The translations under genes were made by a program, and so were the position numbers. Below are positions 17,527 to 52,693 of a DNA stretch of 59,065 nt, in pieces (positions within the stretch are counted from its first letter, which is position 1; the number at the start of each line of letters is the position of its first letter). Origin of the DNA: a bacterium (GTDB lineage Bacteria; JAMOTN01); contig JAMOTN010000003.1 in NCBI GenBank assembly GCA_027062325.1, forward strand, positions 1 to 59,065, read 5' to 3'. Under the pieces are notes generated by a model. That model saw only the letters and a list, made by a program, of their open reading frames with translations, did no database searches and had not been told where the DNA came from.

Positions 17527-17554
17527 AAAAGAAGCCACCTCCTTTGCTGGTTTT

Positions 17555-17609: not shown

Positions 17610-17745
17610 TTTTTTCATCAGTTAGTTTAGCCAAAACTCGTTCCTTTTGCAAGTGTGCCACTTCCCAAAATAGCAACTTTTCATATTAGATTTGATCTAT
17701 TCAAGATCTTTTCATAAAAAAACAGCATCTTCTTTTCCTTTACAA

Positions 17746-19322: not shown

Positions 19323-19324
19323 AA

Positions 19325-30329: not shown

Positions 30330-31256
30330 ATGCCTAAGTGCAAACTCTGTTCCGCTCAAAGTGTAATCTGGCTAAGAGATCAAAACAGAGGCCTCTGTCA
30401 AAAACACTTTGAAGAGTACTTTCTAAGCCGTGTAAAAAGAGCAATTTCAAAGTATAAAATGCTAAAAAAAAGCGAAAAGGTTGTAGTAGGTTTATCAGGT
30501 GGAAAAGATTCCTTAGTAACCGCATGGAGTTTAAAAAAACTTGGTTATAATGTTGAAGGAGTTTTTATAGATCTAGGCTTCAAGCACTATTCAGAAGCTT
30601 CATTCAAAGCAGTAGAAAACTTTTGTAAAAGATTCAACATACCCTTCGAAAGAGTGGATATGAAAAACAAATTTGGAGTCACAGTTCCTGAACTACTTTC
30701 TGCCAACCGTAGGAAGAGTTGCAGCCTGTGCGGCAGCGTAAAAAGGTATGTTTTAAACAAAATAGCGCTAGAGAAAAACGCAATTCTTGCAACAGGTCAT
30801 CACCTCAGCGATGAGATAAGTCAACTTATTGGAAATTTTCTAAACCTCCAGCACGAATACTTATGGCGTCAATCCCCAATTCTACCAGAAGAGGAGGGAA
30901 TGGCAAGAAAAATAAAACCTCTTTGCCTTCTCAGAGAAGAGGAGATAGAGAAAATAGCAGAGATTCTGCAAATCCAACCAGTGAGAGAAAAATGTCCATT
31001 TTCTAAGGGAGCTACAACATTCAAAAACAGAAAACTTGCAAAAGAAATTGAAAACATATTTCCCGGAGCATCTTATAGGTTATATACACAATTTCTAGAA
31101 AAAAAAGAGGAAATTTTCAAGCCGCATGAAGTAGAACTAAAGCGTTGTAAAATTTGTGGTTATAAGACCATTTTGGATATCTGCAACTTTTGCCGTTGGA
31201 AGATGAAGTGGGAGGAAAAATCTGGAAAATTAAAAGTTAAGAGCCACAACATTTGA
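30330..31256 (+). CDS. ttuA: TtuA/Ncs6-type tRNA 2-thiolation PP-loop ATPase
   Basis: N-terminal zinc finger CKLC-x17-CQKH. PP-loop GLSGGKDS. Fe-S cysteines CSLCG and CPF. GHHLSDE. C-terminal zinc finger CKICG...CNFC. Confidence 0.75.
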   Translation: MPKCKLCSAQSVIWLRDQNRGLCQKHFEEYFLSRVKRAISKYKMLKKSEKVVVGLSGGKDSLVTAWSLKKLGYNVEGVFIDLGFKHYSEASFKAVENFCKRFNIPFERVDMKNKFGVTVPELLSANRRKSCSLCGSVKRYVLNKIALEKNAILATGHHLSDEISQLIGNFLNLQHEYLWRQSPILPEEEGMARKIKPLCLLREEEIEKIAEILQIQPVREKCPFSKGATTFKNRKLAKEIENIFPGASYRLYTQFLEKKEEIFKPHEVELKRCKICGYKTILDICNFCRWKMKWEEKSGKLKVKSHNI

Positions 31257-32195
31257 AGAGTTCAAGCCATATATTCCTATGAATTTACAAACTCCTGCAG
31301 CAGCCTTTAGAACCAGCTGGAGCGTTGCATTATCTTTCACTGCAGAACCATCAACCAACAACATCAATTTTTCAACAGGCACAGTTTGCGCCACTGTTGT
31401 CACATCATCCACACTATCAACAATAACCGCTACAAAATCAAATACATCGTACAACCAACTATACTTTGCCACATCATCTGCCTTTACTACAAATACAACA
31501 GGCACCTCCTGCAAGCTATTTGCAACCTCTATAACAAACTGCTTAACACTGTTTTTTATCCACTCATCTACTTCAGCTGCAGAAGCCGCTTTTATGTCTT
31601 TTGCATATTCCTTGTAAAATGCTGCCATAGAATACTCTGAAAATGCCGTTTCAATCGGAGGCACTATTTCATCTGTGAAAGCAACTGCAGACACTGAAAG
31701 CTTTTTCAAATCTGCAAGATACCCCTTTACAATTTCAAGAAAGTCAGGATTCCACATGTCAAACACGTGCAAGTCATTTCCATCCGCGTCCTTGGCCATA
31801 AGTTGCTCATACCCTTCAACTTTTGGATTCAAACTGACAGTCTTTACAACGGGAATAACCCCCATTCCATTCTGCAAAGCTCCAGTTACAACAGCAGAAA
31901 GTGTGGTAACCCCTGCAACCTTTAAAACTTGAGTTGGGAATAGAGCATAATCTCCCGAAAACGCCTCAGCAAACACAAACTTACTTGCAGTGAAAATTTC
32001 AGGCTGGGCGGTAAATTCTCCCACACTTGAGGACGGTAGATATCCTATCTTAGTAATAGTCGCCTCAAGAGACTGTAAGGGTTCGACTAACTGATTACAT
32101 CCCGCAAAAAATACTGCTGCAAACAGCGTAACAAATAACTTAGCCAGCATCCTTTTTGATGGACTTTGAATGTATATAAACCCCCTTCTTCTCAT
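31230..32195 (-). CDS. predicted lipoprotein, function unknown
   Basis: Start set at ATG 32195 (GGGGTGG SD). MRRRGFIYIQSPSKRMLAKLFVTLFAAVFFAGC carries a lipobox. The 3' end overlaps the convergent ttuA by 27 nt. Confidence 0.55.
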   Translation of the reverse strand: MRRRGFIYIQSPSKRMLAKLFVTLFAAVFFAGCNQLVEPLQSLEATITKIGYLPSSSVGEFTAQPEIFTASKFVFAEAFSGDYALFPTQVLKVAGVTTLSAVVTGALQNGMGVIPVVKTVSLNPKVEGYEQLMAKDADGNDLHVFDMWNPDFLEIVKGYLADLKKLSVSAVAFTDEIVPPIETAFSEYSMAAFYKEYAKDIKAASAAEVDEWIKNSVKQFVIEVANSLQEVPVVFVVKADDVAKYSWLYDVFDFVAVIVDSVDDVTTVAQTVPVEKLMLLVDGSAVKDNATLQLVLKAAAGVCKFIGIYGLNSSNVVALNF

Positions 32196-32307
32196 ATACA
32201 CCACCCCTTTTCATACATTGCATCGACAAAAAAAAAGGAGATTTTAGTAAGAAAAGGTAGTAGTGGATGAAGACACTAAAATCAGTACTAGAATCCAAAA
32301 CTCAATA

Positions 32308-33030
32308 CTAATCAGCTTTTACAAAGAGGAAAACTTTAGAATCAAACTTTAAATTTTCAAATAAATCGTAATCAATCCTCACCCAAAAATCAGTACATTC
32401 AACCTTAACTCCATCTTTTAAAACCACATTTATTAAAAGGCTCTTTCTATAACCGGAATACTCAATCACCTTTTTATCTTTAACTTTAGCAACAAACACA
32501 TTCCAACCAGGCTCTTTGTAGTCAGTTTGCGAAACAAAAATCTCACTCATAGCCACAGCTTTACCATCAAGCCATCCACTAATAGCAGTTTCCAAGCGCA
32601 CGCTCAAAGGTGTAAAGTCAAGAAGCTTTACCAACTGTTTCAAATCCTTTGAATCCAGCTTCAAATCTAAACTCTCTAACCAAGTTTTAGCACTTTCAAG
32701 ATCTACCCTCTGGGGAAAACTTCTAAAATCGCATTTTCCAAAAAAGGCCAACTTTAACTTTTTAGAATCAAATACTCGAGCTATAAAATCCTTTACAATA
32801 ATGTGTAAATTCCCATAAAATTTAGCAGTTCTCAACCAATCCAACAAGTAACTTTCAAACTCCACACTCCACTCAAATAACCTCAGATCAACTACAGGAA
32901 AAGCTAATCTACTAAAAAAAATGGGGGCTGCCCGATCAGGAACAACCTCAAGCACTTCCAACCCGGACAGCCCTCCCAACTTACCTAAATCTAATCTAAC
33001 AACCTTTGGCAAATACCAAAACTCCACCAT
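32308..33030 (-). CDS. hypothetical protein (240 aa)
   Basis: ORF begins 16 nt downstream of the HEAT-repeat gene with an AAGGCGG SD. No recognisable motif. Confidence 0.5.
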   Translation of the reverse strand: MVEFWYLPKVVRLDLGKLGGLSGLEVLEVVPDRAAPIFFSRLAFPVVDLRLFEWSVEFESYLLDWLRTAKFYGNLHIIVKDFIARVFDSKKLKLAFFGKCDFRSFPQRVDLESAKTWLESLDLKLDSKDLKQLVKLLDFTPLSVRLETAISGWLDGKAVAMSEIFVSQTDYKEPGWNVFVAKVKDKKVIEYSGYRKSLLINVVLKDGVKVECTDFWVRIDYDLFENLKFDSKVFLFVKAD

Positions 33031-33046
33031 ATCGCCGCCTTACACA

Positions 33047-36000
33047 TCACAACTTATTTTTCTGATAAATCTTTTTCAAAGCCTCCGAAGCCTTCTGTCG
33101 TACAAGCCTACTCTTATCCTTTAAAGCCGCTCTAAGCGGCACAATGGCAGCCACATCTCCAATTTCACCCAAACTCCAAGCCGCAGTAGCCCTCACCTGT
33201 TTACTCCTGTCGTTGAGCAACATTGCCAATCCATCAACAGCCTCTCTGGCCCTCATGAGTCCAAGTGCTTTTGATGCAGCTTCTCTAGCATATCGCGACG
33301 GTTCACTTAACATATCTATGAGAAGCGGTACAGCTTCAGGATACTTAAACTTTGCAAGAACCTCTACTGCCTTTTGTCTTATAACCTCCCTCTCATCACG
33401 CAGAGCCGCAACTAAAGGCTTCACTATACTCTTACCCATACGACGCAACACTTCAACGACCTTTCCCTTAAGCTTAGGATCTGGATCATCTAGCATAACC
33501 GTAAGTGGAACAACTGCTCTTATATCTCCTATCTTACCCAGAGCCTCAACAGCAGCAACGCGCACCTCCACATCCTCATCCTTTAGCATTCCTATCAACT
33601 TATCTACCACCTCTTCACTGTTGAGTTCCCCGAGCTTTTCACAAGCAAGCGCTCTTACTTTTGCTGAAGTATCTTCAAGAGCCGACAATAAAATCACAAC
33701 TGCCCTTGAATCTTCTATTTGAGCTATAGCCCTCACAGCTTCCATTCTAACTTCTTCATTCTCATCCTTGAGCATTAAAGCAAGCTGCTCTACATGAGAA
33801 ACTTCTCCAACTTTTCCCAGCACTTTAATTGCCTCTCTTCTAACCGAAGCATCGCTATCCTTCAAAGCAAGCAACAATCTCTTTGCCACATCAGAAGCAG
33901 CCTCTCCTGTTGCCATCTCACCAAGTGCCTTCACAACCTCAAATCTAACAGCATCATCTGGATCCCCCAACAAATTTGCAAGTGCACCAATTGCTTCAGG
34001 ATTTTTCATCTTCCCAAGCAGTCTTATTATAGAAATTCTATTTTCAGCAGCTCCCAAAGCCACAACAAGTTTTCCAACTAACTCTGGATTTTTGCGAGCC
34101 AACAAAGCTTTTTCAACCCATTCTTCACTAACTTTTTCACGTCCCTCTATTAAGTAAGAGAGCAACTTATCCTCCGCATCTTTTAAACGGCTTTTTCCAA
34201 GAGTGTATATGAACCACTTTATTGTTCCCTCATCAGAGTAATCTATCTCCTCATCAATTCTTTTAACCAATTCAGAAAGATTAAAACCTCCAGCTACATT
34301 GGCTACCTGCCTTCTCATTGCCTCAAGAGACTCTCTCAACACCTTCTGAAGGGTGTAATCATATTCTTGAGCTGCTTCCTCAACATTTACCGTATCCCTT
34401 ATCAAACTAAGGAATATCTCAACAGATCTAATATCTCCATTATCCCCCATCAACTCCATCACATCTTTTCTTACCCAGGCCCAATCAAGTGAGTACGACG
34501 GCTTCAAGCTCTCTGTTCTCAAAAAGTGTTCATCTATATCCCACAGAGCATCCAAAAGCTCTTGAGTAACACCTCTTCTCTCTGCCAGCTCCATCAAAGC
34601 CTCTGCAGCCCTTACATCCCTTATCCTGCCAAGAGTTTTTATCAATTCAGTTCTAACCTCATCGTCCACTACATCTAACCTCGAAATTATAGGAATAACA
34701 GCCGGTTCTCCTATCTCAACCAAAGACCAAAGGATTTTCTCGACTAATACTCCTTTTTTTTCACGTTCAATCAAAGCAAGAAGTGGCTCTATTGCTTCTG
34801 CAACCTTTATCTTTCCTAGAGCATTCACAGCTGCAATTCTGACGTCAACCGAAGGATCCTCCAAAAGCTCAATGAGTATTTCAGAAGCTTTCTTAAGCCC
34901 AAGCTCTCCTAAACTCCAACTTGCTGCCTCTCTTACTTCTGGATCAGGATCAAAAGCAGTCTTTGCCAGTGCATCAAACGCCTCCTCATCCTTTATCATT
35001 CCAAGTGCCCTTACTAAACGTATCTTTATCTCTCCCTCAACCTCTTCAAGCTTTCTTACAAGAAACTCCACTGCTTTAGGATCAGCAATTCTTCCAAGTG
35101 CATCAATTGCTCTTAAAACAACCTCTTCATCCTCATCATCTAAAAGTGAAATCAATCCCTCAGTAGCAAGGGGAGACGCAATCTTTCCAAGCGCCTCTGC
35201 AATTGTTCTTCTAAGGTAAAGTCCAGCAGTTGGTAAAACTCTCAAAAGTGGTGTAACTGCCTCTTCCAAACCAAGCTCCCCCAAAGCAGCTGCAGCTGCT
35301 TCTACAACTTCCTGATCCTCATCTTCCAAAAGCTCAATCAACGTTTGTAACGCTTCAGTATCCTTGATCAAGCCAAGACTCTCTGCTACAGCTGCCCTCA
35401 CCATTGGCGACATATCAGAAGCAAGACGGCAAAGATGCGGCACAGCCTCAGTCGCACGTAATAATCCCAAACTCTTAGCAGCAATATATCGTAGATCTTC
35501 ACTCGCCTCTTCCAACATAAGGACAAGCTTTTCTACTGCTTTAGTCTCACCAATCTTTCCTAGTGCTTCTGCAGCTACATAAACTAGATCATCATTTTCA
35601 TTATCCAAGAATTTCATCAACAACTCAGAACTCGCAGGAGAACCTATTTCTCCCAAAGCCTGTATTATTAAGTAACAGGTGTCTTCATCAGTCTCACGCT
35701 TTAATAACTCCATCAAAGGCTGTACAGCCCTGTCATCTTTGATCTTTCCCAGAGCTTCAACAACTGCATCTTTTATATCCTTTTGCGGAACTGAAAGTTT
35801 CTCAATCAAAGCCTCTACAGCCTCTGTTAGGCGCAACTCGCCCGCTTTTAAAATAGCCTCATAAGCTTCATCTTCGTTTTCAGAATTTATAGCTTCAATT
35901 ATACGAGCAGCAATATTTTCTTCTTTTTCTTGAGGTACATATACAACAACATTGTCAAGCACATCTTCCGAGGCTGCTTCTCCAGACTCTTCAACTTCCT

Positions 36001-37513
36001 CTTTAAACTTACTTCGCGTTCTCTCAATAAGCGGTATAACTTCTCCACCCTTCTCTTTAGAACTTTCAGGATCCTCGCTTACAAGCTCTGCCTCAACCTC
36101 TTCAACAATTTCTTCACCCAATTCCTCCTTAGATTCATCTGCTTCCTTTACAACCTCACCTGCGTTTTCTTCTACTAAAATAGCCTCGCTGCTACTTTCA
36201 CCTTCTACTTGTCCTGGCTCCTTACCTGTGTGAGCCTCCGTTTCTTCAACACTTACTCCTTCCTTTTGCTGTATAAACTCAAGCAAATCCTCCCCTGCCT
36301 CTTCGGTAAACTCTAACTCCTCAAAACCAGAATCAGGTTCATTGGGAAGCTCAACAGATTCTTCACCACTCATCTCAGAGCTATCATCAACAAGCAGTTC
36401 CAGTTCCTCTCCTGATGAATCCCCAGAAGCACTTGTCTCTTCTAAGGATAAAACTTCAGCATCTGAACTCTCCTCTAACATCAACTCTTCTCCAGCATCC
36501 AGTGACAACTCAAGTTCTGCTCCCTCATCTGCCTTTTCATCACTTAAAGTTTCCCCACTTAGCAACTCTAAATCTTCTCCTAAATCTCCCACGCCAGCAT
36601 CCGAGACCGTTTGCTTAGTCTCCTCTTCTCCAAGTTTTTCTAAATCAAGCTCCTCTGCACCATCTAAAGACAATTCAAGTTCACTAGAATCCAATTCCAA
36701 ACTTAAATCTTCACCACTTGGGGAGTCGGAAGCATTCTCTTCTCCATCAACAGTTAACTTAACTTCATCTCCACCAAGATCCCCAAGATCCAACTCACCA
36801 TCTAAAGATATCTCTTCTATTCCATGACCTTCACCTGTTTGGCTATCACTTCCTTCCAACTCAAGCCCTAAGTCCCCACCTTCAACATCCAAATCAAGGC
36901 TTATATCTCCTTCACTCAATCCATCATCCGTCAGTTCAAGCTCTATCACTTCTTCAGATGAACTTGAAGCTCCCTCCTGCTCAGTCGCCTCATTTTCCCC
37001 CGATAAATCAAGCTCAACCTCTTCCATTCCCAAATCTGAAATATCCATATCACCAACATCCAAATCCAACTCTATTACATCTTCACCTAAACTTTCAGAA
37101 GCTTGAGCTGTCGACTTTGCCGACTGATCATCTGAGCCTTCACCAGCCTCAACCTTAGTATCTTCTGCGCCAACATCCACATCTAAACCATCAAGTTCAA
37201 GATCACCTAAATCCAAATCAGCATCCAAATCTATTTCTATCTCATCAGTTCCTTCAGAGGCTGCTTCTCCACTCGCCTGTTTTGCGGAAAGCTGATCAGT
37301 AGAACTCTCTGTTCCCACTCCTGCTGAAGTAGCAGAGTCCGCAGCTGTGCCGTCATCTAATCCATCCATTCCTAAATCCAATTCCAAATCTAGATCATCA
37401 ACATCAAGATCCAAATCCAACTCAAGATCTAAATCTCCTCCCAAATCAGCCCCGCATTTTTCACACTTTTTAGCACCTTCCGGATTCTCAGCTCCACACT
37501 TAGGACACTTCAT
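33047..37513 (-). CDS. giant zinc-ribbon / polyacidic / HEAT (PBS-lyase-type) repeat protein, 1,488 aa
   Basis: GGAGGG SD. N-terminus is MKCPKCGAENPEGAKKCEKCG. About 470 aa of D/E/L/G/S-rich sequence follow (LDLELDLDLDVDDLDLELDLG...). After that, more than 20 repeats of the type VR..AA.ALG.IGD.RAV..L. Confidence 0.85.
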   Translation of the reverse strand: MKCPKCGAENPEGAKKCEKCGADLGGDLDLELDLDLDVDDLDLELDLGMDGLDDGTAADSATSAGVGTESSTDQLSAKQASGEAASEGTDEIEIDLDADLDLGDLELDGLDVDVGAEDTKVEAGEGSDDQSAKSTAQASESLGEDVIELDLDVGDMDISDLGMEEVELDLSGENEATEQEGASSSSEEVIELELTDDGLSEGDISLDLDVEGGDLGLELEGSDSQTGEGHGIEEISLDGELDLGDLGGDEVKLTVDGEENASDSPSGEDLSLELDSSELELSLDGAEELDLEKLGEEETKQTVSDAGVGDLGEDLELLSGETLSDEKADEGAELELSLDAGEELMLEESSDAEVLSLEETSASGDSSGEELELLVDDSSEMSGEESVELPNEPDSGFEELEFTEEAGEDLLEFIQQKEGVSVEETEAHTGKEPGQVEGESSSEAILVEENAGEVVKEADESKEELGEEIVEEVEAELVSEDPESSKEKGGEVIPLIERTRSKFKEEVEESGEAASEDVLDNVVVYVPQEKEENIAARIIEAINSENEDEAYEAILKAGELRLTEAVEALIEKLSVPQKDIKDAVVEALGKIKDDRAVQPLMELLKRETDEDTCYLIIQALGEIGSPASSELLMKFLDNENDDLVYVAAEALGKIGETKAVEKLVLMLEEASEDLRYIAAKSLGLLRATEAVPHLCRLASDMSPMVRAAVAESLGLIKDTEALQTLIELLEDEDQEVVEAAAAALGELGLEEAVTPLLRVLPTAGLYLRRTIAEALGKIASPLATEGLISLLDDEDEEVVLRAIDALGRIADPKAVEFLVRKLEEVEGEIKIRLVRALGMIKDEEAFDALAKTAFDPDPEVREAASWSLGELGLKKASEILIELLEDPSVDVRIAAVNALGKIKVAEAIEPLLALIEREKKGVLVEKILWSLVEIGEPAVIPIISRLDVVDDEVRTELIKTLGRIRDVRAAEALMELAERRGVTQELLDALWDIDEHFLRTESLKPSYSLDWAWVRKDVMELMGDNGDIRSVEIFLSLIRDTVNVEEAAQEYDYTLQKVLRESLEAMRRQVANVAGGFNLSELVKRIDEEIDYSDEGTIKWFIYTLGKSRLKDAEDKLLSYLIEGREKVSEEWVEKALLARKNPELVGKLVVALGAAENRISIIRLLGKMKNPEAIGALANLLGDPDDAVRFEVVKALGEMATGEAASDVAKRLLLALKDSDASVRREAIKVLGKVGEVSHVEQLALMLKDENEEVRMEAVRAIAQIEDSRAVVILLSALEDTSAKVRALACEKLGELNSEEVVDKLIGMLKDEDVEVRVAAVEALGKIGDIRAVVPLTVMLDDPDPKLKGKVVEVLRRMGKSIVKPLVAALRDEREVIRQKAVEVLAKFKYPEAVPLLIDMLSEPSRYAREAASKALGLMRAREAVDGLAMLLNDRSKQVRATAAWSLGEIGDVAAIVPLRAALKDKSRLVRQKASEALKKIYQKNKL

Positions 37514-39035
37514 ACTCTTCCCTCCAACGTTTTATTTCACTTTTTATCCTTTCAATAATTCTATACGAAAGCGGCTTCGAAGCCCATCCTTCTATAATTC
37601 TCTTCGGCACTTTTGATAAAAATGAACAAACTCTTTCAGCAGCAGACAGCTCCACACTTATGTAATCAACCCCTGTAACAAGACACAGGACTGCCCCTTC
37701 AGGATCAGAAGCCAACTGTCCACAAACTCCAACCTCTTTTCCCGATCGTTTAGCAGCATTTACAATTCTCTTGATAGCCATAACAACTGCAGGATTCTTA
37801 TCATTAAAGTAAAGCTCTCCTTCTGGATCTCTCCTATCAGCCGCAAATAAAAGAGTCGTTAAATCATTTGTTCCAACACTGACAAAATCAGCAAACTCCA
37901 GCCATGATAAATCCACCACCAAAGCAGGCACTTCGACCAAAACTCCTACCTCACAACTCACATTGTATCTTCTAATGACACTCCTTACCTCGGCAACTTC
38001 CCACGCCTCAGACACGAATGGCACCAAAATTTTAAAATTATCGTATCCTCTCCTTTGAAGTTCACGAAAAGCTAAAAGTTGATTCACTCTCAACCTTTCA
38101 TCCTTTAACCATCTTCTAACTCCTCTAAAGTAAGGGGAACTTCCATCTCCTGCTAAAACTTTATCACCACCTACATCAGCTAATCTAAGTATCACATCAT
38201 CAAACTCTACAAGCAAACTCTCATAAAATTCTAACTGTTCCTCCACACTCCACTTTCCTTTAAGATAAAGAAATTCAGTCCTAACCAAACCAATTTTTTT
38301 AAACCCAACTTTTTGGGCTTTATCAACGTCAACCTGTGAATTAATATTAACCCTCATAATACAATTCTCACTTAACCGTCCCGAACACATTTCTTTAAAA
38401 TCTCTGGTATAGCGCCGCTTACCAATCTCGACTACCATCTTCTCAGTATCAAATCCTAAATATTCTTTTCCTTCCAACTCAGATACATCCGATACCACAA
38501 AGTAAGGTATGCCGTAAGAGCGCAAAATCAGGGCTAGATGAGAATGCTCATTCGCCCTCTCAACACAAACCCCCTTCACCTTACTTAAATCAAATCTGGC
38601 AATCAAATCTATACCAACTTCAGGAGCTATTACTACAACTTCCTCATCAACCTTTTGCCAACCACTCAACCAATCAATTAAAAACTTAGTAGCAAAGGCT
38701 AGATCGTTTATCCGAACTTTTATAAAAGGATCTGTAAACTCAGAAAGTTTTTTCACAGTATTATAAGTTGCCCTTTTCAGAGCTTCTATCACATCACCTG
38801 TTGATAAGTACTCTTTATAGAGAAGCTCATTGAACTCTTCATCTCCCTCTATAAGAGAAGCTAGGTATTCATAAGCCTCTCCACCTTGCTTTAAACATTC
38901 ACTTATAAGCTGACTACGCCTTCTTTGAAACTCCTCCCAGCTAATTTTTTTACGAACAGGTTCTTTGAAAAAAAATGCCCTTCCACTCCCACGCCCCGGC
39001 ACTATTACTCTTTCTATTTTCAGAATTGTAGCCAC
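37500..39035 (-). CDS. Enzyme-I-like PEP-utilising phosphotransferase (PtsI family), orphan
   Basis: GTG start after AGGGGGAG. His loop EHSHLALILRSYGIPYFVV, then GLVRTEFLYL, RLADVGGDK, LVEVPALV, FVSVGTNDLT. Cys loop VGVCGQLASDP. 511 aa. Confidence 0.8.
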   Translation of the reverse strand: MATILKIERVIVPGRGSGRAFFFKEPVRKKISWEEFQRRRSQLISECLKQGGEAYEYLASLIEGDEEFNELLYKEYLSTGDVIEALKRATYNTVKKLSEFTDPFIKVRINDLAFATKFLIDWLSGWQKVDEEVVVIAPEVGIDLIARFDLSKVKGVCVERANEHSHLALILRSYGIPYFVVSDVSELEGKEYLGFDTEKMVVEIGKRRYTRDFKEMCSGRLSENCIMRVNINSQVDVDKAQKVGFKKIGLVRTEFLYLKGKWSVEEQLEFYESLLVEFDDVILRLADVGGDKVLAGDGSSPYFRGVRRWLKDERLRVNQLLAFRELQRRGYDNFKILVPFVSEAWEVAEVRSVIRRYNVSCEVGVLVEVPALVVDLSWLEFADFVSVGTNDLTTLLFAADRRDPEGELYFNDKNPAVVMAIKRIVNAAKRSGKEVGVCGQLASDPEGAVLCLVTGVDYISVELSAAERVCSFLSKVPKRIIEGWASKPLSYRIIERIKSEIKRWREEYEVS

Positions 39036-39056: not shown

Positions 39057-39536
39057 TTACTCTTCTTCATCATTTCCTGAAAACTCAGGAGTAACCCACT
39101 TCTCTATGTCTCGTTTTACAGAATATATCTCCTCATCTGTAAAGAAAATACTCATCTCACGCCTTGCACTCTCTTGAGAATCAGAAGCATGAACAACATT
39201 ATAAGTTACGAAAACCGAAAAATCTCCCCTTATACTACCCGGAGTACTACCATCTGGAGATGTTGCTCCTATTAACTTTCTTACAATTTTTACAACTTCA
39301 GGTCCTTCCCAGACCATCAACATAACGGGGGAGGAAGTAACAAAATTTACTAGCTTTTCATAGAAAGTTTTCCCCTTGTGTACTTTGTAAAGCTCTTGAG
39401 CCTCTTCCCTGGTCAACCGCTTGAACTTGGCAGCTATAAGACGCAATCCTGCCTTCTCAAGACGGGATATAACCTCCCCTATAAGCCCCCTCTGATATGC
39501 ATCAGGTTTTGTCATAACAAAGGTTCTCTCTATCAT
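39057..39536 (-). CDS. ndk: nucleoside-diphosphate kinase
   Basis: Start set at ATG 39536 (GGGGGTGG SD). MIERTFVMTKPDA, GATSP...PGSIRGDF, NVVHASDS (catalytic His). Confidence 0.95.
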   Translation of the reverse strand: MIERTFVMTKPDAYQRGLIGEVISRLEKAGLRLIAAKFKRLTREEAQELYKVHKGKTFYEKLVNFVTSSPVMLMVWEGPEVVKIVRKLIGATSPDGSTPGSIRGDFSVFVTYNVVHASDSQESARREMSIFFTDEEIYSVKRDIEKWVTPEFSGNDEEE

Positions 39537-39549
39537 AAAAGCCACCCCC

Positions 39550-42709: not shown

Positions 42710-44260
42710 TTATTTTTTACCCTCAAAATTGCTTTCAGAAAAGACAAGAGCTTCAAATGCATAAAGTTGGGTATCCTTATCCTGCCATGCATCCGGAGGA
42801 AGCCCTGCTTTGAAACACACGTGTTGCAAAAACTCCTCTCTATCCCACCCCCACTCAACCGGCACTTGCGGCAATAACAATCCAGACTTCCAACCCTTCT
42901 TTATATACAACCCATGCTTTCCCACAATAACCTCTTCAGGACTTATAGGATAAAGAGGAGTAAGAACGGATATTTCTACTTCCAAAGAGGGAAGCTCATC
43001 CAAGGTCACAGGCGGAAAGCGTGGATCGTGAACAGCCGCTGCAATTGCTGCCTCCTGAACTGTTTTCCAAAGAGGTTGGGTTCCTATTATATAGCCTATA
43101 CATCCACGCAGTGCTTTTTCTTTAGGAACTGATCGCCTATTTAAAGTCACAAAAGCACCCGCCTTTTCAAGCACATTTGAACTGAGTTTACCTGCACGTA
43201 CAAGTTCTTCAACCTCTTCAGCAGCGTTGTAAACTTCTCGTGACGACAAATAAGCTTCTATCGTTTTTCTAGCAAGCTCTAAAAGATACCGCTTATCTTC
43301 ATCCGTTAAACTAAACATGGGCACCCTCCTTCCTTTAGCAGTGAATACCAATCCCGCATATCCTACAACACTTGTAGTATCACCAGTAGTATCAGCACTA
43401 GTAGCCGTTGCTACAACCTTTCCTTTACATCCATTGTACAACAATTTGAGTAACTTCAAAGCAACCAAAGTAGCATTTAAACCGCACATTTCAATCTCTC
43501 CAGAACGCGCCAACTTATATAATCCAACTTCATCTAGCTTAACTAGCTTTTCAAGTGCTCTATCATCCATTCTTCTTACAACAGAAAGGGGTTTATAATG
43601 AGCAAAATCACTGCTTATAACTATAAGAGCTCTTTCCTTCTCAAGTGCCTTATAAAGAGCACTTGCAACAACATAAGCCATTTCCAAATCCAACCAGCCT
43701 ACCAACAAAGGCAAAACCTCTATCTCACGCTTAGCCAAATACTGGATAAACGGCAACTCAACTTCAATCGCATGTTCCCTTTCTTCTGCAGGTCTTGCAG
43801 TGGTGAAGTAGCGTTTTCCATACAACCTAGAAGCCAGCCATCCTGCTACCTTAACTTTCCCAAGAGGAGTTGAGTAGTACTCAAATGTTGGCAAAGCCAC
43901 CCCTGTAAAATTTCCATAGTGAGATGGAGCAAGCAACACTACCACATTATACCTTTTCCAATTCACCTGTTTAAAGACTGCAGCAGCCACTTTGCCAGAA
44001 TACACCCAACCAGCATGCGGCACTAAAGCACCTACTATCTTGTCCTTGAAGGTTAGAATTTTAGCACGTGAGGCAAAATCTTCAAGTGCCTTTTCTAGAA
44101 CATCTTTGTCTTTGGGATAAAACATGCCAGCAACAGCAGAGGATCGAGTATTAGATTGGAATACATTACAAGCTGCAAACACTTGAGCAGAGATCACAAA
44201 CTGCAAAACTGCAAAAACTAAAAATATTTTAACTATAAATTTACCTTTATCAACATTCAA
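42710..44260 (-). CDS. Memo-like (AmmeMemoRadiSam protein B) + AMMECR1 (protein A) fusion with an N-terminal lipoprotein-type signal
   Basis: TTG start after GAGGGTGA. Signal MNVDKGKFIVKIFLVFAVLQFVISAQVFAAC. Memo motifs: VPHAGWVYSG, LLAPSH, EHAIEVELPFIQY, SSDFAHY, MCGLNA. AMMECR1 motifs: GAFVTL, LRGCIG, HDPRFPPV, LEVEISVLTP, GLLLPQV. Confidence 0.8.
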   Translation of the reverse strand: MNVDKGKFIVKIFLVFAVLQFVISAQVFAACNVFQSNTRSSAVAGMFYPKDKDVLEKALEDFASRAKILTFKDKIVGALVPHAGWVYSGKVAAAVFKQVNWKRYNVVVLLAPSHYGNFTGVALPTFEYYSTPLGKVKVAGWLASRLYGKRYFTTARPAEEREHAIEVELPFIQYLAKREIEVLPLLVGWLDLEMAYVVASALYKALEKERALIVISSDFAHYKPLSVVRRMDDRALEKLVKLDEVGLYKLARSGEIEMCGLNATLVALKLLKLLYNGCKGKVVATATSADTTGDTTSVVGYAGLVFTAKGRRVPMFSLTDEDKRYLLELARKTIEAYLSSREVYNAAEEVEELVRAGKLSSNVLEKAGAFVTLNRRSVPKEKALRGCIGYIIGTQPLWKTVQEAAIAAAVHDPRFPPVTLDELPSLEVEISVLTPLYPISPEEVIVGKHGLYIKKGWKSGLLLPQVPVEWGWDREEFLQHVCFKAGLPPDAWQDKDTQLYAFEALVFSESNFEGKK

Positions 44261-44485: not shown

Positions 44486-45670
44486 CTAAACCATATCTAT
44501 CAAATCCCCCACCTTTTTCACTACAAAGTCTGCCTCACCAAGACAAGAAGCAACTTTGAACCCCAAGCTATGAGCAAACTCTAAGCGTACCACCTCATCA
44601 GGAGAAGGCAATATCTCTCCTGCTGGGGTAACATTTCCCAAAAAAACCACCCGTTCCTTTAACCTATCTCCAACTAAAGCTGCTGCAAACAGAGAGAGTA
44701 ATCCCCCAGAATCTTGAAGGGTGTAAGGATGAGCAAAGAAGACTCCGCCCTTGACATTTTTGTAACGCTTAACAACCTTTAAAAAATAAGTTGCTAATCT
44801 TAAATCAACCATGTTGGTAACTACACCATAACCTGCCCTGACATCAACCTTCAACACGTTCAATTTTTCATCAACCGTATATATCCCTCTGCCAAAATCT
44901 ACACTTCCCTCAACCAATTTGCCCTCCTGCCATTCAAGAACCTTAGCCTCAAGCGGAGCAAATCTATTTTTCAAAGCCTTTACAACTACACGCCGATAAG
45001 TGTACCAACTCATTGATACCACTACATCCACTATGTGCTCTAGAAATTTTGGACCTGCACTTTGCCCAGCTTTTGTTATATGATCTGTAATAACTAACAC
45101 CTTATTCTCCTTCCGCACAAGAGCAACAAGAGAGTTTATTACATCCGCAAACTCCCTTGAGATACTCGGCTTCAAAAGAGCAGGAAGAGAATCAAGTACT
45201 ACAAAGTCATAATCTGAAATTAGTGAGAAAACCTCCTCCACATCACTTGCAAATACAAACTCAACTTCTCCATTAATCCTCTCAAGCTTTTGAGCTATTC
45301 TATCCTCGCTTTCTTCAGAAGATATAAAGAGTGTTTTTATCAAAGCTTGGTTTGAATATGTTGGAGTACGGGATACGCGCACCGCAATATCAAGAAGCAA
45401 AGTAGTCTTTCCAACGCCCGGCTCACCGTAGAATAGATACACCGCACCTTTTAAAAACCCTCCCAACAGCTCATCGATAGCAGCAAAGCCGGTCATTATC
45501 TTATCCTGAGTCTTTTTAGGCTTTAACCTTGTCGCTTTAAGACGCTTCTTTCTAGGAGCATCCGCCTCTTCTCTCACCTCTTCAAATGTATCCCATTCAC
45601 CACACTCCGGGCACTTTCCATACCACTTTATGCTGCGAAATCCACACTTATTGCACACGTAATAAGCCAT
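44486..45670 (-). CDS. radA: DNA repair protein RadA/Sms
   Basis: Zinc finger YVCNKCGFRSIKWYGKCPECGEW. Walker A GEPGVGKTTLLL. KNRFA (KNRFG motif). Lon-like C-terminal domain. Start is ATG 45670 or 45691. Confidence 0.8.
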   Translation of the reverse strand: MAYYVCNKCGFRSIKWYGKCPECGEWDTFEEVREEADAPRKKRLKATRLKPKKTQDKIMTGFAAIDELLGGFLKGAVYLFYGEPGVGKTTLLLDIAVRVSRTPTYSNQALIKTLFISSEESEDRIAQKLERINGEVEFVFASDVEEVFSLISDYDFVVLDSLPALLKPSISREFADVINSLVALVRKENKVLVITDHITKAGQSAGPKFLEHIVDVVVSMSWYTYRRVVVKALKNRFAPLEAKVLEWQEGKLVEGSVDFGRGIYTVDEKLNVLKVDVRAGYGVVTNMVDLRLATYFLKVVKRYKNVKGGVFFAHPYTLQDSGGLLSLFAAALVGDRLKERVVFLGNVTPAGEILPSPDEVVRLEFAHSLGFKVASCLGEADFVVKKVGDLIDMV

Positions 45671-46364
45671 AGTAATCCCGTGCCTCCTCAATTTCTTTCC
45701 AATAAAACTTTTTAAATTCTCGCCACGAAGTAAAATTAAAGGTGGAAGCTAGCTTCAATAACCTCCTAGCTTCAGCATTCTTTATCAACATAAACTTAAA
45801 ATCTGGAACGAGTGAGCTGACTTTTTCGATTTTGGCTGGTAAGCTCTCTTTCACAATCAAGACAAGAATTCTTCTCATCTGATAAGGCATCTCAACAACC
45901 ATTGGAAACATCTGAAATCCTACTAACTTTGCTCTAAGCATACCAAAGTACGCAGCAACCCACTGCGGTGTAACATCCGGACTTCCTATATCCACAATAG
46001 CAGCTTCAAAAGTAGCTGATAATTCACGATAAAGTCTAGCAGGCTCTAACAATTCAGAATCAACTGGATCAGCAGGACACACAACCAGCACCTTCAAAAG
46101 ATGGCCAGCGGCAGCTTTACCCTCTTCATACCACGGCGAATCCACAAACACTAGTTCATATCCCTTTCTATGGGCAAGCTTAGCAGCAAGATCCGCCAGT
46201 TTCTCCACCCAGTACAACTCAACATTTGAATCTGCAAGAGTACCCCATCTTTTGGTATCCACGACCACCGCTACCTCAACACTTGGCAAAAAGTACATTG
46301 CAAACGGTAGCAAAAATACAAATATGAACAACACAATCTGCCAAAATCTCCAAGCTTTTCCCAT
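45648..46364 (-). CDS. hypothetical N-terminally anchored protein (238 aa)
   Basis: TM helix FWQIVLFIFVFLLPFAMYFL. No recognisable motif. Confidence 0.5.
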   Translation of the reverse strand: MGKAWRFWQIVLFIFVFLLPFAMYFLPSVEVAVVVDTKRWGTLADSNVELYWVEKLADLAAKLAHRKGYELVFVDSPWYEEGKAAAGHLLKVLVVCPADPVDSELLEPARLYRELSATFEAAIVDIGSPDVTPQWVAAYFGMLRAKLVGFQMFPMVVEMPYQMRRILVLIVKESLPAKIEKVSSLVPDFKFMLIKNAEARRLLKLASTFNFTSWREFKKFYWKEIEEARDYYGLLRVQ

Positions 46365-48174: not shown

Positions 48175-49521
48175 ATGTCAGAGGACCTAGGTAAGCCTAT
48201 AATATCATCACATTCTAGTTTTATATGGAAGCTTTACGGGGGAGTTGCTAGAGTGGCAGAGATAGCAGCTCCCCTTTTTCGTTTATTCGGCAAAGAGTTA
48301 ATTTATCCTCTTCCCGATATACAACAGGGTAAAATTGACATTCTCTTTCACGCAGTCTCAGTTGGAGAAGTTAAGCTGATTTCTCCACTTGTGGAAGAAT
48401 TATCCAAAACCTTCAAATGTGCAATTCAGATTGGCACAGACACAGGTCTTGAATTTGCAAAAAAACTCTTTCCAAAACTTCCCGTTTGGAGATACAAATT
48501 GGATCTTCCCTCTTCCCTAAAGCGAATCAAAATAATTAATCCCAAACTCATAGTGGCAGCTGAATCGGAAATTTGGCCTCTCTTGATGCTTGAAGCTGAA
48601 AAGCTCAAAATTCCATACGTTCTTGTATCCGCACGCATAACAGAACGGGCATTATGTAGATGGCGTGTAGCAACAATTTTCAAAGCTGTACGTCAAATCT
48701 TCTCGATCCCCACAATACTAGCCAAAGACCTAGAAGACGCATATTCATTTAGGGAGTTAGGAGCGAATAAGATAGCCGTCGTTGGAAATCTCAAATTCAG
48801 CTTTGTTAAGAATAAAACGAGGAGCCAATCGGATAGAAACTTTAAGCCCAATCTTCCTGTAATATCAATAATCAGCACGCATGATTCCGAAGAAAAATTG
48901 ATAGTGAAATCAATTTTAGAAGTTGCACCTTCTCCTCTTCCAAAACTTATAATAATACCTCGCCATCCAGAGCGAGCTAGAGCTGTTCAAGGAGAACTTC
49001 AAAAGCTTGGTCTCAATATTCCTCTTCTCTCCAGACTAGAAGACGCCGAATTAAAGGAAGCTCACACATTAGTTAACTTTGTAAAACGTAACAACGCCAT
49101 CATAGTTGATAAAATCGGACTTGTAAAAGAAGCTTTACAACTCTCAGACCTTGCACTTGTGGGAGGCTCATTCACTCCAATAGGAGGCCACAACTTCTTA
49201 GAACCACTTGAATTCGCTGTGCCCACAATAACTGGACCATTTCTTTCGAACTTTAAAGATGTTTTACAAGAGGTGCAATTTCTAACATCCAAACTCTCCT
49301 TGAAGCCAAAACCTCTAATAGTAACTGACGAAGCCGAGTTGGGTAATACTATAAAATTCGTTATGGCAACCCTTTCTTCTTTCAAAAAAAGTGCACTGAA
49401 ACTCTCACAAAACTTATACATGATTGACAAAACCTCAACCTATATAGCAATACTGCGAAAACTATTATCACAAATTTCTCCTCAAGCAGAATCACTCTAC
49501 AAGAGAGGGGAAGTAAATTGA
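48175..49521 (+). CDS. waaA: 3-deoxy-D-manno-octulosonic acid (Kdo) transferase
   Basis: FHAVSVGEVKLISPLVEEL matches the WaaA HAVSVGE motif. PRHPERA. VGGSFTPIGGHNFLEP. Confidence 0.8.
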   Translation: MSEDLGKPIISSHSSFIWKLYGGVARVAEIAAPLFRLFGKELIYPLPDIQQGKIDILFHAVSVGEVKLISPLVEELSKTFKCAIQIGTDTGLEFAKKLFPKLPVWRYKLDLPSSLKRIKIINPKLIVAAESEIWPLLMLEAEKLKIPYVLVSARITERALCRWRVATIFKAVRQIFSIPTILAKDLEDAYSFRELGANKIAVVGNLKFSFVKNKTRSQSDRNFKPNLPVISIISTHDSEEKLIVKSILEVAPSPLPKLIIIPRHPERARAVQGELQKLGLNIPLLSRLEDAELKEAHTLVNFVKRNNAIIVDKIGLVKEALQLSDLALVGGSFTPIGGHNFLEPLEFAVPTITGPFLSNFKDVLQEVQFLTSKLSLKPKPLIVTDEAELGNTIKFVMATLSSFKKSALKLSQNLYMIDKTSTYIAILRKLLSQISPQAESLYKRGEVN

Positions 49522-50939: not shown

Positions 50940-50944
50940 ACAAG

Positions 50945-51649
50945 TTGATAGGTTTAGATCGACACAAGAAATTTTGGAAAACGTGGCAAGCGTTGAAAGA
51001 GGCTCGCAAGTACAAAAAAGAGATGAAAAAGTATCAAACTGAGCTTGCCTCTTTGCAAGAGAGAATAAAAAATTTAGAAAACACAGTTGAGAAGAAACGC
51101 GCATCATTAAAAGAAGCTGAGCTAAAGCAGATGAACATTGAAGACAAAATAAAGCAGCTTGATGAAGAGAAAGAAAAGCTCTCCAGCCTTACAAAGGCCA
51201 ATTGGCAAGAGATTGAGGAGAAGATAGTCCACATAGACAACGAGATCGCTTCACTTGAAGAAGAAGGAATTGAACTACTTCAGGACATAGAAACTTTACG
51301 AGCTGAACTTGCTTCACTCACTCAAAACCTAGAGGAAGCTATGAAAGTTTTTGAAGAAAAGAAACCCATACTACAAGAAAAAATTTCTGAAGTCGGAGAA
51401 AACTACAGGGAAGCACTTGAAAAATACAAAGTTTATTTAAAAGAGTTAGACGACATAGCACGTGAAAAATGGGAAAGGCACAAAAAACTAAAGGTAGTGG
51501 TTGCAAAGTTGCTCGATGGACGCTGTTCAAACTGTTCAACAGAGCTCTTTAAATCGGATCTTGATAAGCTCTCCGATCCTGACTCAATAGTGATATGTTC
51601 AAAGTGCAAGGCACTTCTTGTAAACCCAAAATTTTGCGATCAGGATTAA
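50945..51649 (+). CDS. coiled-coil protein with C-terminal C4 zinc ribbon (COG1579-like)
   Basis: Start set to TTG 50945 (AAGGGG SD, just after the rtcB stop). Long heptad region, then CSNCSTEL...ICSKCKALL. Confidence 0.55.
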   Translation: MIGLDRHKKFWKTWQALKEARKYKKEMKKYQTELASLQERIKNLENTVEKKRASLKEAELKQMNIEDKIKQLDEEKEKLSSLTKANWQEIEEKIVHIDNEIASLEEEGIELLQDIETLRAELASLTQNLEEAMKVFEEKKPILQEKISEVGENYREALEKYKVYLKELDDIAREKWERHKKLKVVVAKLLDGRCSNCSTELFKSDLDKLSDPDSIVICSKCKALLVNPKFCDQD

Positions 51650-52665: not shown

Positions 52666-52693
52666 GCTTCTAAATTAGTGAGAGGTGGATATC

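What the first reader, a model, noticed from the sequence alone, without database searches (positions are those of the whole stretch)
31230..39035. Orphan Enzyme-I-like PEP phosphotransferase translationally coupled to a 1,488-aa zinc-ribbon/polyacidic/HEAT-repeat giant plus two unknown proteins
Seen in sequence: ORF 37500-39035 keeps every Enzyme I landmark in order. These are the phospho-His loop EHSHLALILRSYGIPYFVV, GLVRTEFLYL, RLADVGGDK, LVEVPALV, FVSVGTNDLT and the catalytic Cys loop VGVCGQLASDP. Its stop overlaps by 14 nt the ATG (37513, GGAGGG SD) of a 1,488-codon ORF. That ORF is built from a CPxCG...CxxCG zinc ribbon, a ~470-aa polyacidic tract and more than 20 PBS-lyase/HEAT-type repeats. 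A 240-aa ORF with no recognisable motif follows 16 nt downstream, and then a predicted lipoprotein (FFAGC lipobox). No HPr, EIIA/B/C or other PTS gene is visible anywhere in the 59 kb. Established knowledge: EI normally phosphorylates HPr and is encoded beside ptsH, and EI paralogues such as PtsP are regulatory. Inference: the coupling suggests stoichiometric co-production of a PEP-driven phosphotransferase with a giant repeat scaffold. This could be an undescribed PEP-sensing, phosphorelay or assembly module rather than a sugar transport system.
Basis: partly seen in the sequence, partly recalled or inferred. Interest (0 to 1): 0.75.

Follow-up and report, generated by a model that had tools for sequence, protein, structure and literature searches.

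The report
Diverged Enzyme I beside conserved HEAT giant
A shortened but apparently working sugar-signalling enzyme (PTS Enzyme I) overlaps the gene for a 1,488-residue scaffold protein, and the same pairing occurs in two other little-known bacterial phyla, so the link is probably ancient; what the scaffold does is unknown.

Summary

- **EI-like protein:** it has a full Enzyme I fold (AF2 pLDDT 86; best Foldseek hits are full-length EI). His166 matches E. coli His189 and Cys438 matches Cys502. It is short (511 aa), gives no PF05524 hit, and its nearest homologue is about 30% identical.
- **The giant is not unique:** it belongs to an uncharacterised family of 1,400-1,500-aa proteins in Candidatus Wallbacteria and Riflebacteria.
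- **Conserved adjacency:** in 17 of 35 informative loci the giant lies directly downstream of ptsI. In Wallbacteria the two genes overlap by 26 nt. This arrangement looks ancestral.
- **Relatives have a normal PTS:** there EI follows ptsH and, in the two Riflebacteria loci annotated, mannose-type EIIC/EIID. "Orphan" applies only to the 69 kb visible here.
- **Downstream ORFs:** the 240-aa ORF and the lipoprotein have no homologues and are not part of any conserved unit.
- **No phospho-acceptor:** no His is conserved in the giant, and no Cys outside the zinc ribbon, so a phosphorelay onto it is unlikely.

Best reading: a remnant ptsI-giant core of an ancestral PTS cluster, with the giant as a binding partner or scaffold. 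This is inferred from synteny only.

The parts
37500..39035 (-). Diverged, shortened Enzyme I (ptsI-like), 511 aa. The phospho-His166 codon is at 38538-38540 and the Cys438 codon at 37722-37724.
   Evidence: Pfam PF00391 and PF02896. TIGR01417 scores 176.8 bits against a cutoff of 341.7. AF2 pLDDT 86 with a full EI topology. Top Foldseek hits are full-length EI structures. His166 aligns to E. coli His189 and Cys438 to Cys502. All residues invariant in the 41-sequence EI alignment, which includes the window protein, are therefore present in it.
37500..37525 (-). EI stop / giant start junction: 14-nt overlap (37500-37513) and GGAGGG Shine-Dalgarno (37520-37525).
   Evidence: Read directly from the sequence. 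The equivalent junction in two Wallbacteria loci overlaps by 26 nt.
33047..37513 (-). Giant protein of 1,488 aa, a member of a conserved Zn-ribbon / acidic disordered tract / HEAT-solenoid family.
   Evidence: Pfam. Homologues P0127 and P0130-P0136, P0146. Collinear alignment A2. 45 further family loci (L008-L052 except L051) in genome contigs.
37442..37510 (-). N-terminal zinc ribbon (aa 2-24, CPKCG...CEKCG).
   Evidence: PF13240, E=7.8e-8. C3, C6, C17 and C20 are invariant across the family.
35954..37438 (-). Polyacidic low-complexity tract (aa ~26-520) with repeated LDLDL-type motifs.
   Evidence: 35% D+E, 3% K+R and 22 [DE]L[DESGT]L motifs. An LDLDL motif just after the ribbon recurs in Wallbacteria and Riflebacteria homologues.
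33050..35881 (-). HEAT/PBS-type repeat solenoid (aa ~545-1488), including a less regular middle section (aa ~990-1160).
   Evidence: 12 HEAT_2 stretches. Alignable end to end with Wallbacteria and Riflebacteria proteins, including the C-terminal ...IYxKNKL.
32308..33030 (-). 240-aa ORFan, 16 nt downstream of the giant. Not part of the conserved unit.
   Evidence: No hit in 5.8e9 clusters or in 1.84e9 representatives by full HMMER. No tblastn hit in related loci. AF2 pLDDT 33.
31230..32204 (-). Predicted lipoprotein (likely start at the ATG at 32195; lipobox FFAGC), about 110 nt after the 240-aa ORF. Lineage-specific.
   Evidence: Sequence. No Pfam, NCBIfam or PADLOC hit. No tblastn hit in related loci.
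39057..39545 (-). ndk (nucleoside diphosphate kinase), 21 nt upstream of the EI-like gene. It occupies the position held by ptsH in relatives. Context only.
   Evidence: PF00334, E=3e-52. HPr is at this position in L003 and in 13 Riflebacteria loci.

Best explanation
The region holds a two-gene unit, not four genes.

Gene 1 is a diverged, shortened but catalytically intact PTS Enzyme I. It should dimerise through its C-terminal TIM-barrel domain, take phosphate from PEP onto His166 and pass it to an HPr-type acceptor.

Gene 2 overlaps it by 14 nt. It encodes a cytoplasmic giant from an uncharacterised family restricted to this lineage, Cand. Wallbacteria and Riflebacteria. The layout is an N-terminal zinc ribbon, a ~500-aa polyanionic disordered tract with LDLDL motifs, and a ~950-aa HEAT solenoid.

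The pair is the surviving core of an ancestral sugar-PTS cluster, (GH57/ABC sugar genes)-EIIC-EIID-ptsH-ptsI-giant. That cluster is still seen in Riflebacteria and, without EIIC/EIID, in Wallbacteria. In this lineage ptsH and the EII genes have left the locus, and ptsI has become co-translated with the giant.

Shown: the EI fold and its catalytic residues, the family membership of the giant, and the conserved gene order. Inferred: the giant works with EI as a non-phosphorylated binding partner. It would act as a scaffold that positions or sequesters EI, or reads its state, rather than as a phospho-acceptor. The 240-aa ORF and the lipoprotein are unrelated lineage-specific genes.
For: EI identity. 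Pfam and NCBIfam hits. PDB sequence hits at E=4e-31 to EI. AF2 model with pLDDT 86, a helical EIN subdomain (aa 33-123), a His domain and a TIM barrel. Foldseek TM up to 0.75 to full-length EI. All residues invariant in the 41-sequence EI alignment are present.

Giant family. P0127 is 34% identical over 100% of the HEAT part and has the Zn ribbon. The alignment is collinear. 45 further family loci were retrieved.

Synteny.
- ptsH-ptsI-giant in Wallbacteria L003, with a 26-nt overlap. L008 shows the same overlap; its contig begins inside ptsI, so ptsH cannot be seen there.
- 15 Riflebacteria loci have ptsI upstream, 13 with ptsH visible; 13 spacers are 90-220 nt, one is about 335 nt and one 2.2 kb.
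- An NJ tree of the giants places the EI-linked arrangement in the window, in Wallbacteria and in basal Riflebacteria.
- Within Riflebacteria the EI tree has the same major groupings as the giant tree.

Established knowledge: gene order that survives at about 30% protein identity is usually confined to functionally interacting products.

Why a partner rather than an acceptor: no His is conserved in the giant across the lineages, and no Cys outside the ribbon.
Against: - 18 of 35 informative loci lack ptsI upstream of the giant. Most of these have GAF-HD/recJ/comFB there instead.
- In some Riflebacteria the 90-220-nt spacer carries a conserved promoter-like motif, so the giant may be transcribed on its own.
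- Overlaps are common in this compact genome: 7 of 17 neighbouring pairs.
- The window EI is an isolated long branch. Its orthology to the Wallbacteria and Riflebacteria EIs is not resolved.
- No physical-interaction evidence of any kind could be obtained.
- Whether ptsH exists elsewhere in the genome is unknown.
Confidence: 0.5

Rival explanations
1. Historical synteny only. The EI-like protein is simply this organism's ptsI and serves an HPr (and perhaps EII or regulatory partners) encoded elsewhere. The giant has an unrelated function, and the two genes stay adjacent through inheritance and genome compaction.
For: - The helical EIN subdomain that binds HPr is retained in the model, which suggests that an HPr-type acceptor still exists.
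- In relatives EI sits in a normal PTS operon.
- Half of Riflebacteria separate the two genes.
- A promoter-like element lies upstream of the giant in Riflebacteria.
- Overlaps are common in the window.
Against: The adjacency persists across three lineages whose proteins are only 23-34% identical, while everything else around it has changed. In the two lineages outside Riflebacteria the genes overlap.
Confidence: 0.35
2. The EI-like gene is a decaying relic of a lost PTS: a pseudo-enzyme or a non-functional remnant.
For: - It is about 65 aa shorter than canonical EI, and PF05524 is undetectable even at E<=10.
- The linker is truncated.
- It scores below the TIGR01417 cutoff.
- No ptsH or EII gene lies within 69 kb.
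Against: The ORF is intact and every residue invariant in the 41-sequence EI alignment is retained, including His166 and Cys438. All three domains are modelled with confidence. The start is well placed, with a GGGGGAG-type SD.
Confidence: 0.08
3. The four genes form an anti-phage defence or other conflict system built around a HEAT giant.
For: PADLOC gives partial hits of the giant to HEAT-ARM_XIII and other HEAT-containing candidate defence proteins.
Against: - The hits cover only generic HEAT repeats.
- There is no nuclease, NTPase or other effector domain.
- The context is housekeeping (ndk, nadA, radA, sua5) and chromosomal.
- The family is inherited vertically along with ptsHI or recJ-comFB.
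Confidence: 0.02

Closest known systems
PTS Enzyme I (PtsI; TIGR01417; structures 2HWG, 2WQD, 2KX9)
   Same: It shares the three-part architecture: EIN alpha/beta plus helical subdomain, swivelling His domain and C-terminal PEP-binding TIM barrel. It has the phospho-His (His166 = E. coli His189), the catalytic Cys (Cys438 = Cys502) and the RTEF, DxGGDK, VE(V)P and GTNDL motifs. In relatives the syntenic gene is a bona fide ptsI next to ptsH.
   Different: It is 511 aa rather than about 575, with a shortened inter-domain linker and helical subdomain. PF05524 is not detected. It scores half the NCBIfam cutoff, and its nearest homologue among 5.8e9 clusters is about 30% identical. No ptsH or EII gene lies within 69 kb. 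Its stop overlaps the start of a 1,488-aa HEAT protein.
EI-Ntr (PtsP), the regulatory EI paralogue
   Same: It is an EI that may act in regulation rather than in transport.
   Different: PtsP carries an N-terminal GAF sensor domain and works with NPr and EIIA-Ntr. No GAF domain is present here, and no NPr or PtsN homologue was found.
Uncharacterised 'HEAT repeat domain-containing protein' family of Cand. Wallbacteria and Riflebacteria (e.g. P0127 in GCA_028687545.1; P0146, GX221_08250)
   Same: They share the same N-terminal CPxCG...CxxCG ribbon, an acidic disordered tract with LDLDL motifs, a collinear ~950-aa HEAT solenoid and the C-terminal ...IY/F-x-K-N/H-K-L. About half of the family loci lie directly downstream of ptsI.
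   Different: Identity is only 26-34%. The window protein has the most acidic and most repetitive linker. Its upstream EI lacks an adjacent ptsH. No function is known for any member.
PBS-lyase-type HEAT proteins (CpcE/CpcF, NblB, E. coli YibA-like 'putative lyase')
   Same: The repeat type is the same (PF03130/PF13646).
   Different: The similarity is at repeat level only and falls below every NCBIfam equivalog cutoff (for example NblB 220 against 300). The organism has no phycobilisome context, and the protein is five to seven times longer.
TmaR-controlled polar clustering of EI in E. coli (recalled from memory, not checked here)
   Same: It is a precedent for a non-PTS protein that binds and sequesters EI to tune sugar uptake. 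That is the kind of role proposed for the giant.
   Different: TmaR is a small coiled-coil protein with no homology to the giant. No evidence here shows localisation or binding.

Membership tests
PTS Enzyme I (PtsI) | PEP-binding C-terminal TIM-barrel domain (PF02896) with the catalytic Cys and the Arg/Glu/Asn/Asp set | tested here: met
   PF02896, E=6e-49. Cys438 = E. coli Cys502 and R252 = R296, read from the residue numbering printed. R284, E368, N390/D391 and R401 lie in the RLADVGGDK, VEVP, GTNDL and DR motifs that align with the E. coli motifs and are invariant in the 41-sequence alignment. TM 0.83-0.85 to EIC crystal structures.
PTS Enzyme I (PtsI) | Swivelling phospho-histidine domain (PF00391) with the active-site His | tested here: met
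   PF00391, 29.4 bits against a cutoff of 23.1. His166 aligns with E. coli His189.
PTS Enzyme I (PtsI) | N-terminal helical HPr-binding subdomain (PF05524) | tested here: inconclusive
   The HMM is not detected at E<=0.01 on the whole protein or at E<=10 on aa 1-130 alone. The AF2 model nevertheless shows a five-helix subdomain at aa 33-123, inserted as in EIN. Isolated EIN structures match at TM 0.55-0.62. D65 and D111 are invariant in the EI alignment.
PTS Enzyme I (PtsI) | Scores above the curated equivalog cutoff (TIGR01417) | tested here: not met
   176.8 bits against a cutoff of 341.7.
PTS Enzyme I (PtsI) | An HPr (ptsH) acceptor encoded in the genome, typically adjacent | tested here: not met
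   No HPr was found in the window plus 10 kb by phmmer, tblastn or an HPr HMM. ndk occupies the ptsH position. The rest of the genome is not available, so absence from the genome cannot be tested.
PTS Enzyme I (PtsI) | PEP-dependent autophosphorylation and transfer to HPr | not testable with these tools
   This needs a biochemical assay.
EI-Ntr (PtsP) | N-terminal GAF domain | tested here: not met
   No GAF hit. The protein begins directly with the EIN beta-strands.
PEP synthase / pyruvate phosphate dikinase | N-terminal ATP-grasp nucleotide-binding domain (PF01326) | tested here: not met
   No PPDK_N hit. A separate bona fide 902-aa PPDK is encoded about 6 kb left of the window's start.
Zn-ribbon / acidic / HEAT giant family (Wallbacteria, Riflebacteria) | N-terminal four-Cys zinc ribbon M-x-C-P-x-C-...-C-x-x-C | tested here: met
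   PF13240. C3, C6, C17 and C20 are invariant.
Zn-ribbon / acidic / HEAT giant family (Wallbacteria, Riflebacteria) | Long acidic disordered tract with LDLDL-type motifs between the ribbon and the HEAT array | tested here: met
   35% D+E and 22 motifs. Comparable tracts occur in P0127 and P0130-P0136.
Zn-ribbon / acidic / HEAT giant family (Wallbacteria, Riflebacteria) | Collinear ~950-aa HEAT solenoid with a shared irregular middle section and a shared C-terminus | tested here: met
   Alignment A2, 26-34% identity end to end. tblastn E values of 1e-104 to 2e-143 for most full-length loci.
Zn-ribbon / acidic / HEAT giant family (Wallbacteria, Riflebacteria) | Location immediately downstream of ptsI (ancestral arrangement) | tested here: met
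   The window has a 14-nt overlap. 17 of 35 informative loci show the same order.
PBS lyase / NblB (HEAT_PBS equivalogs) | Score above the NCBIfam equivalog cutoffs, with a phycobiliprotein context | tested here: not met
   NblB 220 against 300, CpcE 178 against 330, CpcF 116 against 220. There are no phycobilisome genes in the window.

The most novel reading that the evidence does not exclude
In this lineage Enzyme I has been freed from HPr and from sugar transport, and works directly with the giant. PEP-dependent phosphorylation of the EI dimer would control its docking on the zinc-ribbon/polyanionic/HEAT scaffold. Together they would form a new PEP-sensing regulatory or organising module, whose ancestral form is a PTS accessory protein shared by Wallbacteria and Riflebacteria.
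Probability: 0.18. Interest if true: 0.75.

Novelty: new variant of a known kind. Interest (0 to 1): 0.5.

Why it matters
If the link is functional, the general PTS enzyme EI would have a previously unrecognised giant partner. That partner is conserved across at least three deep, uncultivated bacterial lineages.

The window would then show the minimal form of the partnership: EI plus scaffold, with no HPr or permease nearby. This gives a concrete system for asking how EI's phosphorylation state is read by non-PTS proteins. It also gives a first functional handle on a family of 1,400-1,500-aa bacterial HEAT proteins that is currently annotated only as 'HEAT repeat domain-containing'.

If the link is only historical, the finding reduces to a very divergent ptsI next to an uncharacterised but conserved scaffold protein in a poorly sampled lineage.

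Tried and rejected
- **Source contig by exact EI product:** not on record. The NadA look-up found a 104-kb ENA contig that is 100% identical to the window over the 20.9 kb fetched, so it offers no sequence diversity for selection tests.
- **Genome-contig scan with the EI-like protein:** nothing found.
- **240-aa ORF:** word-indexed search, full HMMER over 1.84e9 representatives, Pfam at E<=10 and single-sequence AF2 (pLDDT 33) were all empty or unusable, so no fold search was run on it.
- **Metagenome-contig scan with a window+Wallbacteria giant alignment:** the tool chose only zinc-ribbon patterns, and every hit was an unrelated ribbon protein.
- **EI phylogeny:** the window EI is a lone long branch, so orthology to the syntenic EIs is unresolved.
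- **Promoter/terminator scan of 30.8-40.2 kb:** counts were no better than shuffles.
- **Defence-system reading:** rejected, because PADLOC gave only generic HEAT hits.
- **PEP synthase/PPDK and PtsP readings:** rejected on domain content.
- **Other large HEAT hits:** P0128, P0129, P0133, P0142 and similar proteins lack the ribbon, the acidic tract and collinearity, and have unrelated contexts.
- **Literature:** searches for Riflebacteria + PTS, Ozemobacter, Wallbacteria, and EI + HEAT returned nothing relevant.


Full report
**1. Observation**

All four ORFs lie on the minus strand at the stated coordinates.
- The EI-like ORF (37500-39035, 511 aa) ends GAG TAT GAA GTG TCC TAA. The ATG of the 1,488-codon ORF (33047-37513) lies inside that sequence. 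This gives a 14-nt overlap, with GGAGGG 6 nt upstream of the ATG.
- The 240-aa ORF starts 16 nt after the giant's stop. The lipoprotein ORF (lipobox FFAGC) follows after about 110 nt.
- Pfam finds PEP-utilizers and PEP-utilizers_C in the first protein. In the giant it finds a Zn_Ribbon_1 and 12 HEAT_2 stretches. It finds nothing in the last two ORFs.
- Residues 26-500 of the giant are 35% Asp+Glu and 3% Lys+Arg, with 22 [DE]L[DESGT]L motifs.
- No HPr, NPr, EIIA or mannose-type EIIC/EIID homologue is detectable in the window or in the 10 kb beyond its left end. Pfam annotation of most of the remaining large ORFs shows no PTS family.

The description is therefore correct, with one qualification. 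The overlap by itself says little, because 7 of 17 same-strand neighbouring gene pairs in this stretch overlap (gene calls). The surrounding genes are an unrelated housekeeping array: radA, memo-ammecr1, sua5, a FAD oxidase, a methyltransferase, a GNAT and ndk.

**2. The EI-like protein**

It is most similar to PTS Enzyme I: TIGR01417 at E=6e-52 and PDB EI chains at E=4e-31. It is also unusually divergent.
- Its score is half the equivalog cutoff (176.8 against 341.7 bits).
- The nearest of 5.8e9 protein clusters is about 30% identical.
- Every listed homologue carries the N-terminal PF05524 domain. That domain is not detected here even at E<=10.

An AF2 model built on a 41-sequence alignment is confident (pLDDT 86). 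It shows the complete EI topology:
- N-terminal strands;
- a five-helix inserted subdomain (aa 33-123), the part that binds HPr in canonical EI;
- the His domain;
- a short linker that is disordered in the model;
- the TIM barrel.

The best Foldseek matches are full-length EI structures, with TM up to 0.75. His166 aligns with E. coli His189, Cys438 with Cys502 and R252 with R296. The other EIC signature motifs also align, and every residue invariant in the 41-sequence EI alignment is present. About 18 residues are deleted from the inter-domain linker, with further deletions elsewhere.

I conclude that it is a minimised but probably active EI. It is not PtsP, because it has no GAF domain. It is not a PEP synthase or PPDK, because it has no ATP-grasp domain. 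A true 902-aa PPDK lies about 6 kb left of the window.

**3. The giant**

A search with its HEAT part returned mostly generic HEAT proteins, but a coherent set stood out at the top.
- P0127 from a Cand. Wallbacteria MAG is 1,430 aa, 34% identical over 100% of the query, and has a Zn ribbon.
- A series of 1,400-1,455-aa proteins comes from Cand. Riflebacteria/Ozemobacteraceae.

Their sequences share four features:
- the N-terminal M-x-C-P-x-C-G...K-F-C-x-x-C-G ribbon;
- an acidic disordered tract with LDLDL motifs;
- a HEAT solenoid that aligns collinearly from end to end, including an irregular middle section;
- the C-terminal ...IY/F-x-K-N/H-K-L.

A scan of GTDB species representatives with this alignment gave 45 family loci (L008-L052 except L051). 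Nearly all are Riflebacteria, plus a second Wallbacteria. The giant therefore belongs to a conserved, lineage-restricted and wholly uncharacterised family. Its only annotation is 'HEAT repeat domain-containing protein', and four literature searches found nothing on it.

**4. The adjacency test**

- In Wallbacteria L003 the gene order is ROK kinase, GH57, HPr, EI (589 aa, with PF05524), giant. EI and the giant overlap by 26 nt. The second Wallbacteria locus (L008) has the same 26-nt overlap; its contig begins inside ptsI, so the genes upstream cannot be seen.
- tblastn with the Wallbacteria EI and HPr finds ptsI directly upstream of the giant, on the same strand, in 15 Riflebacteria loci. ptsH is visible upstream of ptsI in 13 of these. 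Thirteen spacers are 90-220 nt, one is about 335 nt and one is 2.2 kb.
- Of 35 loci with enough upstream sequence, 17 have this arrangement and 18 do not. Most of the 18 have GAF-HD, recJ and comFB upstream instead. In EI-linked loci the same recJ block lies downstream in inverted orientation, which points to an inversion.
- An NJ tree of the giants places the EI-linked arrangement in the window, in Wallbacteria and in the basal Riflebacteria branches. I therefore read it as ancestral.
- Within Riflebacteria the EI tree has the same major groupings as the giant tree.
- In the two Riflebacteria loci annotated (L037, L019), EI is part of an ordinary sugar cluster: an ABC sugar-binding protein, GH57 or a MalK-type ATPase, mannose-type EIIC and EIID, HPr, EI.
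- The window's 240-aa ORF and lipoprotein have no counterpart in any related locus and no homologue at all.

**5. Interpretation**

Gene order that survives between lineages whose orthologues are only 23-34% identical is usually limited to products that work together. That is established comparative-genomics knowledge.

Here the ptsI-giant junction is the one element kept in all three lineages while everything around it changed. In the two non-Riflebacteria lineages the genes overlap.

- The ancestral setting is a normal sugar PTS with ptsH.
- The unit is two genes rather than four.
- No His is conserved in the giant across the lineages, and no Cys outside the ribbon. Phosphotransfer onto it is therefore unlikely.
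- Linkage has been lost in about half of Riflebacteria.
- Some Riflebacteria spacers carry a conserved promoter-like CAAGACAAAT-N15-17-GATAAT element, which suggests separate transcription there.

My preferred model (confidence about 0.5) is that the window preserves the remnant ptsI-giant core of an ancestral PTS cluster. In this model the giant acts as a docking or sequestering scaffold for EI, or for the EI/HPr pair.

The main rival (about 0.35) is inherited synteny with no functional tie, with EI serving an HPr encoded elsewhere. The retained helical EIN subdomain, with its invariant Asp residues, does suggest that an HPr-type acceptor still exists. The relic and defence-system readings are unlikely.

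**6. Limits**

- Only 69 kb of this genome could be seen. The second assembly of it is 100% identical over the 20.9 kb compared, so no selection analysis was possible.
- The organism is not among the GTDB representatives, and its taxonomy is unknown. It looks like a fermentative diderm: it encodes a Kdo transferase, an SLH-domain protein, two PTA_PTB enzymes and an acetate/butyrate-kinase-like protein.
- No tool here could test protein-protein interaction.

**7. Verdict**

The EI is a new, highly divergent member of a known family. The giant is a member of an undescribed but conserved family. Their conserved linkage appears to be unreported. I rate it a new variant of a known kind, with moderate interest (0.5). 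The interest would rise if an EI-giant complex, or genome-wide absence of HPr, were shown.

Noticed in passing
L010, L016, L023, L034, L037, L046, L048 (spacer between ptsI and the giant): A conserved promoter-like element, CAAGACAAAT followed 15-17 nt later by GATAAT/GCTATC/GATACT, lies upstream of the giant. An invariant CGGAGGT Shine-Dalgarno follows. This suggests that the giant has its own promoter in these Riflebacteria.
   Followed up: partly
L007, L010, L011, L013, L014, L017, L018, L022-L024, L027, L029, L032, L035-L037, L040-L043, L047-L050, L087, L089: In Riflebacteria the giant is nearly always next to a GAF-HD phosphodiesterase / recJ / comFB block. The block lies upstream on the same strand (loci without EI) or downstream and inverted (EI-linked loci). 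This is a second conserved neighbourhood, and it suggests an inversion event.
   Followed up: partly
L002 16563-19271 (about 6 kb left of window position 1): A canonical 902-aa pyruvate phosphate dikinase (PPDK_N + PEP-utilizers + PEP-utilizers_C) is encoded near the window, next to trkH/trkA. The organism therefore has a second PEP-utilising enzyme besides the EI-like one.
   Followed up: no
window 42710-44260 (-): A single 516-aa ORF fuses a Memo-like domain with an AMMECR1 domain. These two are usually separate genes.
   Followed up: no
window 51751-56061 (+): Two tandem phosphate acetyl/butyryl-transferase paralogues, a CLC channel on the opposite strand, and an acetate/butyrate-kinase-like gene. 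This is a fermentative acyl-phosphate module.
   Followed up: no
window 15886-17676 (-) and 48175-49521 (+): An SLH-domain protein and a Kdo transferase in the same contig indicate a diderm envelope with an SLH-type outer-membrane tether.
   Followed up: no
window 5365-7476, 14670-15422, 17859-20476, 45648-46364, 50840-51649, 56918-57922: At least eight further ORFs of 216-487 aa have no Pfam hit at E<=1e-5, in line with a deeply branching, poorly sampled lineage. The EI-like protein's best database match of about 30% fits the same picture.
   Followed up: no
window 57923-59065 (-): tRNA-Val, tRNA-Glu and tRNA-Met, then a 5S rRNA cut by the contig end. Both assemblies (59 kb and 104 kb) stop here, presumably at the rRNA operon.
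   Followed up: no
L016, L028, L029, L041, L048 (record titles): Contigs that carry typical Riflebacteria giant/ptsHI/recJ neighbourhoods are labelled Rhodobacterales, Avigastranaerophilus, Erysipelotrichia or Methylomirabilis in their MAG titles. These are probably mis-binned or mislabelled.
   Followed up: no
window 1-48000: GC skew is strongly negative (down to -0.49) and nearly all genes lie on the minus strand. This is consistent with one replichore and pronounced strand bias.
   Followed up: no
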